Shown here piece after piece: positions 1,698 through 44,535 of a DNA stretch of 64,000 nt (positions are counted from its first letter, which is position 1; the number at the start of each line of letters is the position of its first letter). Below the pieces are notes generated by a model, which saw nothing but the letters and a program-made list of their open reading frames with translations, was not told the DNA's origin and made no database searches. The stretch comes from Mobula hypostoma. Its lineage: Eukaryota. A program made the position numbers and the translations under genes. The DNA lies in NCBI RefSeq assembly GCF_963921235.1, contig NC_086097.1, forward strand, positions 129,272,001 through 129,336,000, read 5' to 3'.

Positions 1698-2089
1698 TAT
1701 TGTTGTGAAAGTACAAATCTTACTTTCTTCCTTGAATGGCCCGACTGTGATTTTATGATTATCTTTCATTACACTGAGGACTATTTTTTTCCTCAATATC
1801 AGCCCCTGCCACAATCTGAAAAGCAGAAATCAGACATTCTCAGGGACTATAAATGTAATCTCTGGGATTCCTTCTCTTGGTAGAATTCCTTTTGTTAACA
1901 TTAATTTCCTTAGGATATGGGGATTTCTGGCAGGTCCAGCATTTGTTTCCTATTCCTTATTGCCCTGGAACTTAATTGGTTTGCTGGACCATTCCAGGGG
2001 CATCAAAGGCAGAATGGTTTCCTATAAGCAACATACATCAAAGTTGCTGGTGAACGCAGCAGGCCAAGCAGCATCTATAGGAAGAGGCG

Positions 2090-2127
2090 CAGTCGACGTT
2101 TCAGGCCGAGACCCTTCGTCAGGACTA
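2090..2127 (-). ncRNA. Second hammerhead motif copy on the inverted arm
   Basis: Exact reverse complement of 3085-3122. Confidence 0.8.
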
Positions 2128-2418
2128 ACTGAAGGAAGAGTGAGTAAGGGATTTGAAAGCCGGAGGGGGAGGGGGAGATGCAAAATGATAGGAGAAGACA
2201 GGAGGGGGAGGGATAGAGTCGAGAGCTGGACAGGTGATAGGCAAAAGGGGATACGAGAGGATCATGGGACAGGAGGCCTAGGGAGAAAGGTGGGGGGGGG
2301 TGACTCAGAGGATGGGCAAGAGGTATATTCAGAGGGACAGAGGGAGAAAAAGGAGAGTGAGAGAAAGAATGTGTGCATAAAAAGGAGTAACAGCTAGGGT
2401 ACGAGGGGGAGGTGGGGC

Positions 2419-2712
2419 CTAGCGGAAGTTAGAGAAGTCAACGTTCATGCCATCAGGTTGGAGGCTACCCAGACGGAATATAAGGTGTTGTTCCTCCAAC
2501 CTGAGTGTGGCTTCATCTTTACAGTAGAGGAGGCCGTGGATAGACATGTCAGAATGGGAATGGGATGTGGAATTAAAATGTGTGGCCACTGGGAGATCCT
2601 GCTTTCTCTGGCGGACAGAGCGTAGATGTTCAGCAAAGCGGTCTCCCAGTCTGCGTCGGGTCTCACCAATATATAAAAGGCCACATCGGGAGCACCGGAC
2701 GCAGTATATCAC
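2419..2712 (-). pseudogene. Penelope GIY-YIG endonuclease domain (5'-truncated, frame intact)
   Basis: IYCVRCSRCGLLYIGETRRRLGDRFAEHLRSV...VATHFN...EEQHLIFRLGSLQPDGMN matches the GIY-YIG pattern with the CxxC and His residues typical of Penelope-like elements. Confidence 0.93.
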
Positions 2713-3084
2713 CCCAGTCGACTCACCTTATATTCCGTCTGGGTAGCCTCCAACCTGATGGCATGAACATTGACTTCTCTAACTTCCGCTAGGCCCCACC
2801 TCCCCCTCGTACCCTAGCTGTTACTCCTTTTTATGCACACATTCTTTCTCTCACTCTCCTTTTTCTCCCTCTGTCCCTCTGAATATACCTCTTGCCCATC
2901 CTCTGGGTCACCCCCCCCCCATCTTTCTCCCTAGGCCTCCTGTCCCATGATCCTCTCGTATCCCCTTTTGCCTATCACCTGTCCAGCTCTCGGCTCTATC
3001 CCTCCCCCTCCTGTCTTCTCCTATCATTTTGCATCTCCCCCTCCCCCTCCGGCTTTCAAATCCCTTACTCACTCTTCCTTCAGT

Positions 3085-3122
3085 TAGTCCTGACGAAGGG
3101 TCTCGGCCTGAAACGTCGACTG
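3085..3122 (+). ncRNA. Minimal type I hammerhead ribozyme motif in Penelope 3' repeat
   Basis: TAGTC-CTGACGA-AGG-GTCTCGG-CCT-GAAAC-GTC-GACTG. Contains the core CUGANGA and GAAA, a GUC cleavage triplet, stem I TAGTC/GACTG, a short stem II and a palindromic ACGU in place of stem III. Confidence 0.8.
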
Positions 3123-3799
3123 CGCCTCTTCCTATAGATGCTGCTTGGCCTGCTGCGTTCACCAGCAACTTTGATGTATGTTGCTTGAATTTCCAGCATC
3201 TGCAGAATTCCTGTTGTTATGGTTTCCTATAACTTCAATTAAGTACTTCAGTTACCTGCTGTCAAAATGTTCATTTTATTAATGACATCTTGTTTTTTTC
3301 ATTTGCTACCTTCGTTAAATTATTATATTCCTACACTTTTGTTTATCTACTACTATTGTTAATTATATCTGCACTTGACCACCATAGTATAACTACATAA
3401 GCAAGTACTATCAAATATCTTTGGACTTACAGCTTTTACCAATGTTTTAAAATATTCAAGTAACTTCTTTTCTAGTTCACCATGAATAGCCTCACGTTTC
3501 TGTTCACTGAAATATATCCACCAGAGTTCTGCCCAGTCAGCTGATTTACAAATGTGTCTTTGTAATTGCTTTACTAATTGTACTTTTAATACCACTAGTT
3601 TGTATCAGAAATTTGAATTCATTGCTCACAATTGTATTTATATCAATAATGCTAAAAATATTGTTAATTATGGCTTCAGCAATGATCCATTTTGGAATTC
3701 TTCCAGGCATTCATTACAGTTTGTATACACCCCTGCTTGTCGTCATCTGTCCCTGAAGCAATATTCCTAACAGGCCGATAACTTGCCTTTCTTTGGGAA

Positions 3800-11189: not shown

Positions 11190-12862
11190 TCCAGTGGTTT
11201 ACAATCATTTTAATCAAATTCAATCAATCTATACAATATCTCGGCCACTGTGCCTTACTGCAACCTCCTTCACGAAGTTCGGGACTGGTGACCCAGGAAA
11301 GTACAAGAGGTTCAGGTCTGACCTCCGGAAAGCTATCTCACATGCACAGTGGCAATTCCAGACTAAACTTGATTGACAGAAGGATGCTTGACAGCTGCAG
11401 CAGGGCCTGAATGCCATCATCTCATTCAAAGCAAACCCAAGCAACAGAAGTGACAAGAAGGTTTTTCTCAAAGCCTTTTATGCTCACCTTGACTTGACAG
11501 AACCTGGAGGCACCTTCATAAATTCCCACACCACCTGACGACCCTATGATCTTAGTATGATTTTAGAAGCCAACATGAGAACATCATTCAGGAAGGTGAA
11601 CCTGTGGAAAGCATCTGGCCCAGACGGTGTACCTGGCCAAATCCTGCAGACCTATGATCATCATGTACAAGGGGTGATTGATACGTTTTTGGCCTAAGGT
11701 GGAAGGAGTCAATTTTAGAAAACCTAGCACATTTATTTTTCAACATAGTCCCCTCCTACATTTACACATTTAGTCCAGCGGTCGTGCAGCAGACGGGTCC
11801 CTTCTTTGTAGAAGTTGGCATCTTGGACCTCCAGAAAGTGGTCCACAGCAGGGGTGATTGATAAGTTTGTGGCCTAAGGTAGAAGGAGATGAGTTATTAA
11901 CTTCAAACTTTCTGTATAATCACTCAAAGAGTTGAACTGCATGTGCATGTAATGAGAGCTGTATGACTCATCTCCTCCTACCTTAGGCCACCAACTTATC
12001 AATCACCCTTGCTGTGGACCAGTTTCTGGAGGTCCAGGACTCCAACTTCTAAAAAGAAGGGATCCGTATGCTCCATGACCGCTGGACTAGGTATGTAAAT
12101 GTAGGAGGGGAATATGTTGAAAAATAAATGTGCTAGGTTTTCTAAAATTGATTCCTTCTACCTTAGGCCACAAACTTATCAATCACCCCGTGTAAGTGCC
12201 GCCACAAAGAAGGCACAACAATGCCTCTACTCTCTCAGAAGTTTGCGCAATTTTGACACGTCATCTAAAATTTTGAAAACTTCTATTGGTGCACAGTAGA
12301 GAGTTCTGTATATTGATCGGCTACATCACGGCCTGGTTTGGAAACACTAATACCTAAGAATGAAAACGTCTACAAAAGGTGGTAGATATAACCCAGTCCC
12401 TGCAGGAAAATCCCTCTCCACCACTGAGCACATCTACAAGGATTGCCGTCACAAAAAGGCAGCATCCATCAGGGGCACTTGCCATTGGGAAAGAGGTACG
12501 GGAGCCTTATGTCCCACACCACCAGGTTCAGGAACGGTTCAACCATCAGGCTTCTGAACTAGTGTGGATAACTTCATTCACCTCAACTCTGAACTGAATC
12601 CATAACTTATGAACTCACCTTCAAGACTCTACAACTCATGTTCTCAGTATTATTCATTGATTTAATTGTTAGTTTGTTTAATTACAGTTTGATTTATTTT
12701 GTACATTGGTTGTTTGTCAGCCTTTGTGTGTAGTTTTTAATTGATTCTATTATATTTCTTTGTTTTATTATGAATGCCTGCAAGAAAAATAATCTCAGGG
12801 TTGTATATGGTGACACACTGTATATGTACTTTGATAATAAATTTACTTTGAAATTTGAACTT
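11190..12862 (+). mobile_element. Rex1/Babar-type LINE, decayed and internally deleted, interrupted by a mariner MITE
   Basis: Translations GDPGKYKRFRSDLRKAI, KASGPDGVPG and KKAQQCLYSLRSLRNF; 3' UTR ends AATAAATTTACTTTGAAATTTGAACTTT. Confidence 0.75.
11668..12192. mobile_element. Tc1/mariner-type palindromic MITE
   Basis: Flanked by TA (11666-67 and 12193-94). Termini CAAGGGGTGATTGAT / ATCAATCACCCCGTG. Inverted arms of about 230 bp. Confidence 0.9.
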
Positions 12863-13566: not shown

Positions 13567-14585
13567 AAGGTTGTGGGGAAGCTGGGGAGTTGCCTAGAAG
13601 CACCTTTGAACTGGAAACTCACTAGTTACAAACCATGTTGTTTGTTAAAAGCATATTGTGTGACACTGCATCATTTATATGGCAGTGACAGTGAGACTGT
13701 AATATATGTGCTGCTGCAACAAAATTAGATGACATGCTGATATCCTTCTGGTTTATTTCATTTACACTGGAAACTTGCATGTTGATGCCTCATATTAAAA
13801 TGGATGTCAATTTACTTATTTAGCCATTTAATTTTTGTTTGTAGATTCTGTATTTAACAGATAACCATTTGCTACAATATTTCCCAAACACCTAAATGGA
13901 AGTCATTACAGGTAATCCATTAATTTCCATGAAAATGTCATGAATAACTGTAACAGACATAATGTGCATTTCTAATAATTCATCATGTCATTTGCTGTCA
14001 TTAATATAAATTCACAAGCATTAAATGAATCTTTTCTAGTTACTGGTTATTCATTATGAGAAATGAAGTGGGCAGTTCATCAAAGTCCATGAAAACAAAC
14101 CAACTTTCAGCTATTTTCATCACAAGCAGCGCTTGTACATTTATAAACCATTGAAGTTTGAAAATGACGACTATGCGCATTTACAAGAAGATTCTTTCAA
14201 ATGCAACTTCATTCTCTTCAATTTAAGATTTTCACTTCAATGGAATTTATTCTACCATATGGTCATAATAAAAGCACAACATTTAAAAATAACCCAGGTT
14301 CCAAAGTGAGCCATGAAAGTGATGGAAATTAATAATTATGTGTGCAAAGTTTCTATCACTGTTTTATTAGGGGATATATTAACCCATTCTGAGTAATGTA
14401 TTGTGCAGGATCAAAACTAAGCCCCATCTCCCGTTCCCCCACTGCCTTGAATCTCAGCCCACTGTGCCCTCATCCCTCTTGCACAAATCTCACGAGCTCT
14501 CCACATCGTGGAGTTTAGTGCAATGATTTAAGGAACAACAGGTCCTTTGTCAGCACAGTATAAAGTAAACAATGCTCCATCCCAT

Positions 14586-14700
14586 CACAAACAAGAGAAA
14601 ATCTGCAGATGCTGGAAATCCAAGCAACACACACAAAGTGCTGGAGGAACTCAGCAGGCCAGGCAGCATCTATGGAAAAGAGTACAGTCCACGTTTTGGG
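14586..14700 (-). mobile_element. Penelope 3' repeat fragment
   Basis: CTGCAGATGCTGGAAATCCAAGCAACACACACAAAGTGCTGGAGGAACTCAGCAGGCCAGGCAGCATC, related to the reverse complement of 3130-3215. Confidence 0.8.
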
Positions 14701-14819
14701 CAGAGAACATCTAAGTATAGATGGAGCCCATTGAGAAGAGACTGGTTTGCACGACAGACTGAGTAACATCTAGTTATTCGTGACTTTTAACATGCTTTGA
14801 CTGTCTATTACATTCAGAG

Positions 14820-17643: not shown

Positions 17644-18075
17644 AACACATAAACACAAGGAAGTCTGCAGATGCTGGAAATCCAAAGCAACACACACAAA
17701 GTGCTGGAGGAACTCAACAGGTCAGGCAGCATCTATAGAAATGAATAAACAATCGACGTTTCAAGCCAAGACCCTTCTTCAGAACTGAGAAAAAAGGGAG
17801 AAGATACCAGAATAAATGGTGGGGGAATTGGAAGGAGGCTAGCTAGAAGGTGATTGGTGAAGCCAAGTGGGTGGGAAAGGTAAAGGGCTGGAGAAGAAGG
17901 AAGCTGATAGGAGAAGAGAGTGGACCGTAGGAGAAAGGAAGGGACCCGTGTGAATTGACGGGCAGATAAGAAAAGGTGAAAGGCAGAATGGGGAATAAAA
18001 GAAGAAAAATACATAAGAATATTGCAAAATTCAATGTTCATTCCATAAGGTTAAAAAGCGCCTAGACAGAAGATG
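17644..18075 (-). mobile_element. Penelope 3' repeat (older subfamily) with decayed hammerhead motif near 17753-17786
   Basis: Homologous to 52105-52500 and to the reverse complement of 40520-40835. Confidence 0.8.
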
Positions 18076-36190: not shown

Positions 36191-36900
36191 GAGGTTATGC
36201 TCTGACGCAGGCAGTCTCATCCTGAAACATTGACTGTTTACTTGTTTCCATAGATCCTGCCTGACCTGCTGAGTTCCTCCAGCATCCAGAATCTGCAGAA
36301 TCTCTTGTGTTCATAATTGAACATAGATAATTGATGCTCAGTGCAGACTCGGTGGGCAGAAGAGTTTGTTTCTGTGCTATATCTCTCTGTGACTCCCTGA
36401 TTCGATGATGTGAAATCAAATCCCTGTCTGTACTCTCAAGTGGATGTAAGGTCCTAAATTTCTTTTTGCACTCTGTGATAGAATTTGATTAAAGATAAAG
36501 CTTTATTACACCCTTTGGCATTTTCACAGAAAAATCATCAAAAAATGGGATTTCCGCTGCATCATGACAGTGGACCTGCAAAAGTTTGACCAAAGAAGTA
36601 GAAAACTAGGGAGGTAGATCACAGCTTAGCACCAGGGCAGTAGTTGACACGGCCACTAGCACGGCAAGCACTGACTGGAGCAGTCTCAATTTCTCAAAAA
36701 AAACTGTAAGGCTCATGAGATTTCAGAGATAGGAGAGGATAAGATCACAGATCTGAAAGCAATTTTTAAAACAAGGATATGACTTGGCTAGGAGTCAGTG
36801 TAGGTCAGCAAGCACAGTGGCAATAAGCAATACACTGGCAAAAATCCGTTGAAGTTTGTGTATATTTTGCAGCCAGGTCAAAGACCGCACTCAGTCTAGA

Positions 36901-39000: not shown

Positions 39001-39524
39001 CAAATGATACCTAACATGCTCGTACTGTACATCAATTAATCTCTGCAAGCAAGGGTAAAAGAATGCATGTTTTGTGACTCAGGCTGTGTACCACCATCAC
39101 TGGATTATTGAGCATGGTCGAGGGGAAAGAACCTTAGGGATTCCAATGCAAAAGGGGGAGATTTAGCCCATTACACATCGTCATATAGTCACACAGAAAC
39201 AGCTCTTCAGGGTATCTGGTCCATGTTGACCAAGATACCCATCCAAGCTAGTTCCATTTGCCAGCTTTTGGCCCAGAGCCTTCAAACTTTTTCCCATCTA
39301 TATACCTGCCCAACTGACTTTTAAAAGCTGTTATTACTCCTGCTTCAACTCATTCCATAGTCTCCACCACCCTCTGTGTGGGGAAAGTTGTAGTTTTATA
39401 AATCAGTACGGAGACCCTACCTCAGTTCTCAACAGTGGACATTAAGAGGCTTTTAAATAAACACATGAGTGAGCAGGGAATTGATAGATGTGGTTCAAGT
39501 GCAGGCAGAAGACAATTAGTTTCA

Positions 39525-39714
39525 CACATTAAAGTTGCTGGTGAACGCAGCAGGCCAGGCAGCATCTCTAGGAAGAGGTACAGTCGACGTTTCAGGCCGA
39601 GACCCTACGTCGACTGTACCTCTTCCTAGAGATGCTGCCTGGCCTGCTGCGTTCACCAGCAACTTTGATGTGTGTTGCTTGAATTTCCAGCGTCTGCAGA
39701 ATTCCTGTCGTTTG
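39525..39714. mobile_element. Miniature fold-back Penelope insertion with 15-bp TSD, inside a CR1 3' end
   Basis: Arms 39523-39590 and 39607-39674 differ by one mismatch; AGACAATTAGTTTCA occurs at 39510-39524 and 39715-39729. Confidence 0.93.
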
Positions 39715-39914
39715 AGACAATTAGTTTCATTTGGTATCATGTTCAGCATTGTGGACTGAAGGGTCTGTTCTATGTTCTGTGTTCTGTATTCTGTTATGTT
39801 TCCCTATCACACATAGAGAATGCAGCCATGTTAGAAGTGACATATTTAAGATGACTAAACTATATGACTATTCATATTTAAGATGACTTGACTATATGTC
39901 TTCCCACCCTGTCT

Positions 39915-40835
39915 CTCCTGTAAAAATGCTAATCCCTTTTCTCGATTCCTTTACCTCCAGTGCATCTGTTCCCAGGATGAGGGTTTCCTTTCTAGGACAT
40001 TAGAGATGTCTTCCTTCTTCAAAGAATGCCTCCACCTCTGTTGATGCTGCCCTCAACCACATATCCTCCATCACCTGGACATCCATGCTCACCCCATTTT
40101 CCTGCCACCTTAACAGGGAGAGAGTTCTTCCAGTCCTCAGCTACCTCCCCATGAGCCTCCCCACCTGACACATCATTCTTCGCTATTTCCGCAAACTTCC
40201 AACGGATCCTACCACCAATCACAACTTTACCTCTGCTCCCCCCACCCACCCGCCCATTCCCCGCTTTCTGCAGAGATCGCTCTCTCCATGGTCTCCTTGT
40301 TCATTCATCCCTGCCCACTAATCTACCACCTGGCGTTTATCCCTGTAAACAGCCTAAAAGCTACATCTGGCCCTTCACCTCCATTCAGAGCCTCAAACAG
40401 TCCTTCCAGGTGAGTCAACACTTCACCTCCTAATCTGCTGGGGTTGTCTATTGTATCCATTCCCATTCTGACATCTTATGTCATGCTGAAACAACCCTCA
40501 GGGTGGAGTAGCAACAACTTGTATTCCATCTGGTCAGCCTCCAATTTGATGGCACGGATATCGATTCCACCTCCCGATAGAAAAAATTCTCTCTCCTTCC
40601 CCTCTCCTCCCTCTCCCAGACCTCTTACCTCTTCTCACCTGCTTATCACCTGCCCCTAGTGCCCCTTTTCCTTCTCTTTCTCCGATGCTCCACTCTCCTC
40701 TGCTACCAGATTTCTTCTTCTCCAGCCCTTTACCTTTCCCACCCACCTGGCTTCACCTATCACCTACTAGCTATCCTCCTTCCCGTTCCTCCAGCCTTTT
40801 ATTCTGGAATTTTCCCCCTTCCTTTCCTTTTTTGT
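39915..40835 (+). mobile_element. Penelope fragment (RT C-terminus, partly deleted endonuclease, 3' repeat), decayed
   Basis: Reverse-complement homology to 52105-53050 and to 2419-2560. Confidence 0.8.
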
Positions 40836-44436: not shown

Positions 44437-44535
44437 TTAGTTCTGATGAAGGGTCTCAGCCTGAAATGTTGACTCACTTGCTTAGATGCTGCCTGACTTG
44501 CTGAGTTCCTCCAGCATTCTTGTGTTCTTCTTGTG
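44437..44535 (+). mobile_element. Penelope 3' repeat fragment starting at a hammerhead motif
   Basis: TAGTTCTGATGAAGGGTCTCAGCCTGAAATGTTGACT followed by AGATGCTGCCTGACTTGCTGAGTTCCTCCAGCA. Confidence 0.75.

What the first reader, a model, noticed from the sequence alone, without database searches (positions are those of the whole stretch)
39510..39729. 190-bp Penelope hairpin whose inversion junction sits at the ribozyme cleavage site
Seen: 15-bp TSD and 68-bp arms with one mismatch. The sense arm begins at ACGTC|GACTG (39607), five nt before the predicted cleavage position, and the antisense arm stops inside stem II (GAGACCCT, 39606). Inference: the ribozyme, by cleavage or by its structure, sets the end of the reverse-transcribed template, generating miniature non-coding fold-back elements about the size of a pre-miRNA hairpin. 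The five extra nt mean the match to a cleaved 5' end is not exact.
Basis: partly seen in the sequence, partly recalled or inferred. Interest (0 to 1): 0.72.

Follow-up and report, generated by a model that had tools for sequence, protein, structure and literature searches.

The report
Penelope hairpin joined past ribozyme cut
This 190-base DNA hairpin is one of thousands of stub insertions of a Penelope-type jumping gene whose copies mostly end about 30 bases before the predicted cut site of the element's small ribozyme motif rather than at it, likely because the copying enzyme runs off an RNA end lying there, which would give a testable clue to how these poorly understood elements copy themselves.

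Summary
The anatomy is right: 15-bp target duplication, 190-bp insert, 68-bp arms with one mismatch. It is a stub of a Neptune-type Penelope-like element (26,203 exact copies of its 3' tail): inverted 5'-truncated arm, sense arm, 40-nt tail, a described layout. The cleavage idea is mostly unsupported. One arm runs 21 nt and the other 5 nt past the predicted scissile bond, and the join lies on a 4-nt CGTC match between two parts of the hammerhead. This junction type recurs 87 times, with unrelated flanks in the 30 examined. In 195 copies picked by their tail, breakpoints are far from uniform but peak at the 5' edge of helix I (67 of 211 ends in 10 nt), not at the cut (8 ends in 6 nt, p=0.14). 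Genome-wide counts agree and leave room for a small cut-site class (2-4 times its neighbours). Best reading: two cDNAs primed from both target nicks run off an RNA end near helix I and are joined by microhomology; the RNA end is inferred. The scan found this same pattern several times before, in this genome and others.

The parts
39510..39524 (+). left copy of 15-bp target-site duplication (last 2 nt also match the start of the inverted arm)
39525..39606 (-). inverted, 5'-truncated arm of the Penelope-like terminal repeat (element positions 690 to 609); starts at the inner of the family's two start zones (about 686-704)
39586..39606 (-). hammerhead helix II, GAAA and GUC on the inverted arm; the arm runs 21 nt past the predicted scissile bond (39586|39585) and stops before the CUGACGA core
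   Evidence: sequence against the intact sibling copy
39607..39611 (+). junction ACGTC; CGTC is shared by both arms (4-nt microhomology); predicted scissile bond follows 39611
39607..39714 (+). sense arm (element positions 625 to 732), ending at the family's 3' end
39675..39714 (+). 40-nt unpaired tail present on one arm only
   Evidence: tail described in PMC8557442 and PMC11167929
39715..39729 (+). right copy of the target-site duplication
2014..3232 (+). larger sibling insertion with the same layout (14-bp duplication, 698-nt inverted arm, 495-nt sense arm, intact hammerhead motif at 3084-3122); used as reference

Best explanation
This is a single insertion of a Neptune-type Penelope-like retrotransposon, likely made when both nicked ends of the target primed reverse transcription at the element's two start zones and the two short cDNAs were joined head to head on a 4-nt match inside the hammerhead motif. 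Shown: the 15-bp duplication, the two arms starting about 40 nt apart (the tail), the family identity, the microhomology, the independent recurrence of the junction, and the family-wide pile-up of arm ends at the 5' edge of helix I, about 30 nt upstream of the predicted cut. Inferred: each target strand primed its own cDNA; the template was uncut at the scissile bond where the arms cross it; the pile-up marks a 5' end of a short linear RNA (transcription start or processed end) that the enzyme runs off. The hairpin is a by-product, has no complete ribozyme and shows no sign of spreading as a unit.
For: Family: RT and GIY-YIG domains, DKG motif and C-x4-C-x2-C linker in a long copy; 26,203 exact tail copies. 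Layout: 80 of 195 tail-anchored copies carry a short adjacent inverted arm, mostly starting at 686-704; duplications of 12-15 bp in 83 of 94 called. Joining: 44 of those 80 junctions overlap by 1-14 nt, 11 are blunt, 25 have inserted bases. The same junction occurs 87 times (83 with T, 4 with A); of 30 fetched, flanks were unrelated, 23 had their own duplication, and the tail was on one arm in 17, on the other in 12, unclear in 1. Hotspot: sense-arm end rate per 1000 copy-bases 33.8 at 596-601, 15.6 at 602-609, 11.6 at 583-595, against 3.6 at 628-632, 2.0-3.7 elsewhere downstream and 0.8-1.5 upstream of 560; 47 of 80 inverted arms end at 583-609. Genome-wide 'arm starts exactly here' counts, raw: 2,916 at 599, 1,256 at 600, 651 at 594, 354 at 622, 525 at 630, 167 at 632, 167 at 642. 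RNA end rather than constant block: in 5 of 30 tandem loci an arm ends at 582-598 and is preceded by sequence from just downstream of the tail, as after a jump within the 5' part of a transcript; heads of full-length tandems stop at 560-609 in only 2 of 14 against 73 of 152 solo arms (p=0.022). In vitro the anole element cuts and extends both strands, starts at two sites bounding the tail, and does not need ribozyme cleavage (PMC11167929).
Against: No raw RNA reads were available, so the RNA end is not seen. No extra G before position 599 (3 of 19 non-inverted loci), so no cap signature. The hotspot is broad (about 565-609), not one base. Full-length tandem heads mostly extend far upstream of the supposed RNA start (12 of 14), which needs a second, longer or circular template class. 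Counts at 598-600 are inflated by an older related family (only 11 of 30 loci at 598 and 24 of 30 at 599 were this subfamily; 600 not checked) and the count at 584 by subfamily variants. The cut position is 1.7 to 4 times its neighbours after correction, and this junction type (87) exceeds two control microhomology junctions away from the cut (18 and 7), though those controls have weaker partner positions and longer patterns. The tandem-head comparison rests on 14 loci.
Confidence: 0.6

Rival explanations
1. The folded, protein-bound hammerhead or the pyrimidine-rich stretch in front of it stalls the enzyme on a long RNA, so arms end at the 5' edge of helix I with no RNA end there.
For: The peak (598-599) coincides with the 5' strand of helix I (597-601). 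The anole hammerhead folds and cleaves only with the element's protein (PMC11167929).
Against: A helix met from the 3' side would be expected to stop the enzyme at its 3' foot (about 634), where ends are rare (reasoning from general knowledge). Heads of full-length tandems pass the same motif with few stops (2 of 14).
Confidence: 0.17
2. The hotspot reflects splicing: the bases before helix I read as a branch point, pyrimidine tract and two AG acceptors (593-595 and 597-599), and splicing intermediates or bound splicing factors end the copyable template.
For: In Drosophila virilis Penelope the intron's 3' end maps to the 5' end of helix I (PMC4209133; intron position in PMC2377424). Ends also cluster at 583-586, next to the putative branch A.
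Against: Non-inverted copies abut the target duplication with no shared upstream exon. No AG-ended skip to these acceptors was among the 15 joints listed on contigs (158 more were not shown). The splice signals are read by eye.
Confidence: 0.1
3. [quoted passage not shown]
For: 83 of 87 sibling junctions have T there and are compatible with an arm starting exactly at the cut. The count at the cut (525) is above 622 (354), 632 (167) and 642 (167); 17 of 30 fetched loci at the cut are breakpoints without a 3-4 nt overlap.
Against: The other arm crosses the bond by 21 nt, so at least one template was uncut or rejoined. The A variant occurs 4 times in 87, more than a 0.3-1% substitution rate would give (p 0.0001-0.012, rates assumed), so this copy likely read to 625. 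10 of 30 loci at the cut are GAC/GACT microhomology joins and 3 are not breakpoints. In the unbiased sample the cut is not enriched (p=0.14). Minimal metazoan hammerheads cleave poorly (PMC4209133); no anole reads began or ended at the cut (PMC11167929).
Confidence: 0.1
4. The hairpin is a non-autonomous miniature element (MITE- or retrozyme-like) that spreads as a unit.
For: The same junction recurs 87 times.
Against: Among 30 fetched, the tail switches arms (17 vs 12), outer ends and subfamily letters vary, and both arms usually share their copy's own variants. The insert lacks the catalytic core. 87 is tiny against 26,203 tail copies.
Confidence: 0.03

Closest known systems
Endonuclease-positive Penelope-like elements, Neptune type (Craig et al. 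2021, PMC8557442; passages read)
   Same: RT plus C-terminal GIY-YIG, DKG motif, CX2-5CxxC linker; heavy 5' truncation; adjacent inverted 5'-truncated copy; 30-40 bp tail on one end; partial tandems.
   Different: The passages read give no distribution of truncation or inversion points and no hotspot at the hammerhead.
Inverted pLTR insertions of Adineta vaga Penelope (Arkhipova et al. 2013, PMC3846280; first 2 of 5 parts read)
   Same: Inverted terminal repeat overlapping the direct one, 31-bp tail, target duplication, microhomology at 5' junctions.
   Different: Few copies, 8-10 bp duplications; here tens of thousands of copies, 12-15 bp duplications, and stubs made of the terminal repeat alone.
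Anole Poseidon element PAc (Frangieh et al. 2024, PMC11167929; first 2 of 4 parts read)
   Same: Two internal start sites bounding the tail, both target strands cut and extended, uncut RNA as main template, hammerhead about 100 nt upstream of the start sites.
   Different: Different clade; in the parts read the joining of two cDNAs and the 5' end points of genomic copies are not addressed.
Minimal hammerheads of metazoan PLEs (Cervera and de la Pena 2014, PMC4209133; first 2 of 4 parts read)
   Same: Type I motif, 5-bp helix I, palindromic ACGU in place of helix III, extra base before helix II; the paper notes pairs of motifs on opposite strands 100-700 bp apart in Schistosoma.
   Different: This insert holds only the 3' part of the motif; activity of the family's motif was not tested.
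Twin priming of L1 (recalled, no paper read)
   Same: Second target strand primes its own cDNA; the two are joined by microhomology into a 5' inversion.
   Different: L1 arms cover successive parts of the RNA; here both arms copy the same stretch from two starts 40 nt apart, giving a near-perfect hairpin.
Non-LTR retrozymes (bioRxiv 10.64898/2026.07.22.740005; first part and passages read)
   Same: Short non-coding PLE-derived sequences tied to a type I hammerhead.
   Different: Retrozymes are head-to-tail arrays with a whole hammerhead per unit; this is one head-to-head insert with none.

Membership tests
EN+ Penelope-like element | Parent element encodes RT with C-terminal GIY-YIG endonuclease | tested here: met
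   Copy L080 shares the 3' end (97-98% to the window sibling) and gives RVT_1 E 1.7e-5 and GIY-YIG E 4.3e-4, both just under Pfam's curated cut-offs
EN+ Penelope-like element | Terminal repeat formed by partial tandems, overlapping the start of the unit | tested here: met
   385 exact tandem junctions; 20 of 30 fetched continue into the unit, about 3.5 kb long
EN+ Penelope-like element | Adjacent inverted 5'-truncated copy and one-sided 30-40 bp tail | tested here: met
   This locus (40-nt tail) and 80 of 195 copies
Neptune clade | CX2-5CxxC motif in the RT-EN linker | tested here: met
   C-x4-C-x2-C before the GIY-YIG domain in the translation; definition. Nematis shares a reduced linker.
Neptune clade | Phylogenetic placement of RT among Neptune elements | not tested
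   No reference set fetched and no tree built
Minimal type I hammerhead (family motif) | CUGANGA and GAAA boxes, helices I and II, palindromic helix III remnant | tested here: met
   By eye in intact copies; no Rfam hit
Minimal type I hammerhead (this insert) | Complete catalytic core within 39525-39714 | tested here: not met
   No CUGANGA on either strand
Minimal type I hammerhead (family motif) | Self-cleavage after GUC | not testable with these tools
   Needs an RNA assay
Non-LTR retrozyme | Head-to-tail units each with a whole hammerhead | tested here: not met
   Single head-to-head insert without the core
MITE-like self-propagating element | Many copies of one fixed unit with the same ends | tested here: not met
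   87 same-junction copies vary in outer ends and in which arm bears the tail
pre-miRNA or siRNA hairpin | Transcribed and processed into small RNAs | not testable with these tools
   No raw or small-RNA reads were offered

The most novel reading that the evidence does not exclude
The tens of thousands of stubs are a fossil map of the element's RNAs: a short linear RNA that starts at the foot of hammerhead helix I is copied twice, from both nicked target ends, into hairpins; a minor set of ends at the scissile bond records real ribozyme cleavage in the germ line; and full-length tandems, which ignore the hotspot, come from ribozyme-made circles or multimers.
Probability: 0.25. Interest if true: 0.68.

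Novelty: new member of a known kind. Interest (0 to 1): 0.4.

Why it matters
How Penelope-like elements make their inverted ends and what their hammerhead does are open questions (PMC8557442, PMC11167929). This locus alone is an ordinary stub, but the family statistics make both questions testable: they predict an RNA end or stop 30 nt upstream of the cut, two cDNAs per insertion, and at most a small share of cut-defined ends. Scaling 74 of 195 to 26,203 tail copies suggests roughly 10,000 short near-perfect hairpins in this genome, a possible source of double-stranded RNA (untested).

Tried and rejected
Rfam scan of the window: no hammerhead match. Sequencing-run search: no RNA holder listed, contigs only; contigs laid on a tandem copy and on this locus showed no usable start, end, splice or empty-site information, and the flanks of this locus were not covered. 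First DNA search was biased to copies spanning the whole query and was not used for counts. Cap-G signature: not seen before 599 (3 of 19). Count at 584 (595) discarded: 14 of 20 fetched loci were subfamily variants, not breakpoints. Count at 598 (10,200) used only after scaling by 11 of 30. Eight apparent sense ends at 334-350, read as artefacts of a reference indel (one, L311, has a duplication and may be real), were counted as long copies; inverted arms that start far from the junction or belong to long copies were not counted. Self-propagating mini-element: rejected. Supplements of PMC11167929: three text files searched, no hits for the terms; its figure S2, which maps genomic copy ends, could not be seen and may bear on whether the hotspot is already visible in print. 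Supplements of the bioRxiv preprint are closed. Paper searches for the hotspot listed nothing describing it; only titles and abstract starts were seen for most hits, and subscription papers are not searched.

Full report
Observation. The RNA fold is far beyond shuffles (z -21.9). The window holds a larger insertion of the same layout at 2014-3232 and several older copies. Element positions below are counted on a working reference taken from that sibling: helix I 5' strand 597-601, CUGACGA 602-608, helix II 609-621, GAAAC 622-626, predicted cut 629|630, 3' end about 730. The finding's inverted arm covers 690 to 609 and its sense arm 625 to 732. Both therefore cross the predicted cut, by 21 and 5 nt. 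The four bases CGTC at the join also continue the inverted arm, because the core's GACG and the CGUC before the cut are complementary. The insert has no catalytic core on either strand.

What it is. The 33-nt tail has 26,203 exact matches in the 3.48-Gb genome. [quoted passage not shown] 385 exact tandem junctions exist, and 20 of 30 fetched continue into a unit of about 3.5 kb. An inverted 5'-truncated copy, a one-sided 30-40 bp tail and a target duplication are the described structure of such insertions (PMC8557442; PMC3846280 parts 1-2).

Test of the cleavage idea, sample. I took the 100 listed places of one tail pattern and the 95 new places among the 100 listed for a second, chosen without regard to 5' ends, and mapped arm ends. 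131 sense arms end within the last 370 nt and 80 have a short adjacent inverted arm. Of these 211 ends, 67 fall in 596-605 and 8 in 626-631, against 36 in the 45 flanking bases (p 1e-25 and 0.14). The sense-arm end rate per 1000 copy-bases is 33.8 at 596-601, 15.6 at 602-609, 11.6 at 583-595, 3.6 at 628-632 and 0.8-1.5 upstream of 560. 162 of 195 sense arms read at least 4 nt through the cut; in 65 of 74 miniature hairpins at least one arm does, in 45 both. Of 80 junctions 44 overlap by 1-14 nt, 11 are blunt and 25 have inserted bases.

Test of the cleavage idea, genome-wide. Patterns of three non-element letters followed by 23 element letters count arms that start at one base. Raw counts: 651 at 594, 10,200 at 598, 2,916 at 599, 1,256 at 600, 354 at 622, 525 at 630, 167 at 632, 167 at 642. 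Checks on 30 loci each showed an older related family in 19 of 30 at 598 and 6 of 30 at 599, non-breakpoints in 3 of 30 at 630 and 10 of 30 at 642; 600, 622 and 632 were not checked. Corrected for these shares and for pattern conservation: about 800, 4,600, 2,900, 410, 700, 240 and 170 at 594, 598, 599, 622, 630, 632 and 642. So the cut position is a quarter of 599 but 1.7 to 4 times its neighbours; 10 of its 30 loci are GAC or GACT microhomology joins and 17 are not. A minor cut-defined class is possible but not shown.

This junction. The same join occurs 87 times, 83 with T and 4 with A at the first base. The 30 fetched have unrelated flanks, 23 their own duplication, and the tail on either arm (17, 12, 1 unclear), so they arose separately. 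Two control joins on other microhomologies away from the cut occur 18 and 7 times; their partner ends are in cooler positions and the patterns longer, so the excess of 87 is modest and not decisive. Four A variants exceed what an assumed 0.3-1% substitution rate gives, so this copy most likely read to 625 on RNA that was not cut there.

Mechanism. Each strand of the insert begins with the target duplication followed by antisense sequence, from about 730 on one strand and about 695 on the other. That fits the anole element in vitro, which cuts and extends both target strands, starts at two sites bounding the tail and works without ribozyme cleavage (PMC11167929 parts 1-2). I infer two cDNAs joined by microhomology. 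For the hotspot I favour an RNA 5' end near helix I: five of 30 tandem loci show an arm ending at 582-598 preceded by sequence from just downstream of the tail, and heads of full-length tandems stop at 560-609 in 2 of 14 cases against 73 of 152 solo arms (p=0.022), which a constant block would not give. Against it, no cap G was seen (3 of 19), the zone is broad, and long tandem heads need longer or circular templates, as proposed in PMC4209133 (part 2). A structural stall and a splice-site origin remain rivals; in D. virilis the intron ends at the 5' end of helix I. No RNA data could decide. Hairpin-derived siRNAs were suggested for D. virilis Penelope (PMC3136932 passages) but are untested here.

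Novelty. The structure is known. A hotspot of ends at helix I was not found in paper searches (listings only for most), and a supplementary figure of PMC11167929 that could show it was not visible. Earlier notes of this scan report the same pattern in this genome and others; they are unchecked AI notes, seen after my reading was set down, and are not counted as support. The twin-priming comparison and the promoter and splice-signal readings are recalled knowledge.

Verdict. Observation confirmed, interpretation partly supported: the hammerhead region does shape where copies end, but at its front edge and not mainly at the cut. New member of a known kind; interest 0.4.

Noticed in passing
window 2014-3232: Larger fold-back insertion of the same family with a 14-bp duplication; both arms share private letters (99% complementary), as expected if one RNA or one event made both.
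   Followed up: partly
L157, L159, L174, L179, L180: Short tandem stubs in which a copy ending at 582-598 is preceded by 76-310 nt from just downstream of the tail and another terminal repeat; they look like template jumps within the 5' part of a transcript.
   Followed up: partly
L186, L187, L188: Three separate loci share a join of an arm ending at 599 and an arm starting exactly at 630 with one extra A between them; a candidate for run-off at two RNA ends, one of them the predicted cut.
   Followed up: no
element positions 570-599 (window 3058-3087): The stretch before helix I reads both as initiator-like CA/TA steps (570, 583, 594, 598) and as a branch point, pyrimidine tract and two AG acceptors; arm ends cluster near these steps.
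   Followed up: partly
L405, L406, L409 and others; window 14585-14706, 17652-17786, 36202-36285, 44437-44517: An older related family shares the hammerhead core and a pyrimidine tract ending in AG right before it, but differs on both sides.
   Followed up: no
window 11666-12194: 232-bp inverted repeat, 91% complementary, 65-nt spacer, unrelated to the Penelope family and inserted in a LINE-like fragment; looks like a DNA-transposon remnant.
   Followed up: no
window 39841-39901: Two 29-nt direct copies 32 nt apart, 90% alike, about 110 nt downstream of the insertion.
   Followed up: no
window 40114-40830: Older decayed fragment of a related Penelope-like 3' region (endonuclease end and pyrimidine-rich 3' part) about 400 nt from the finding.
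   Followed up: no
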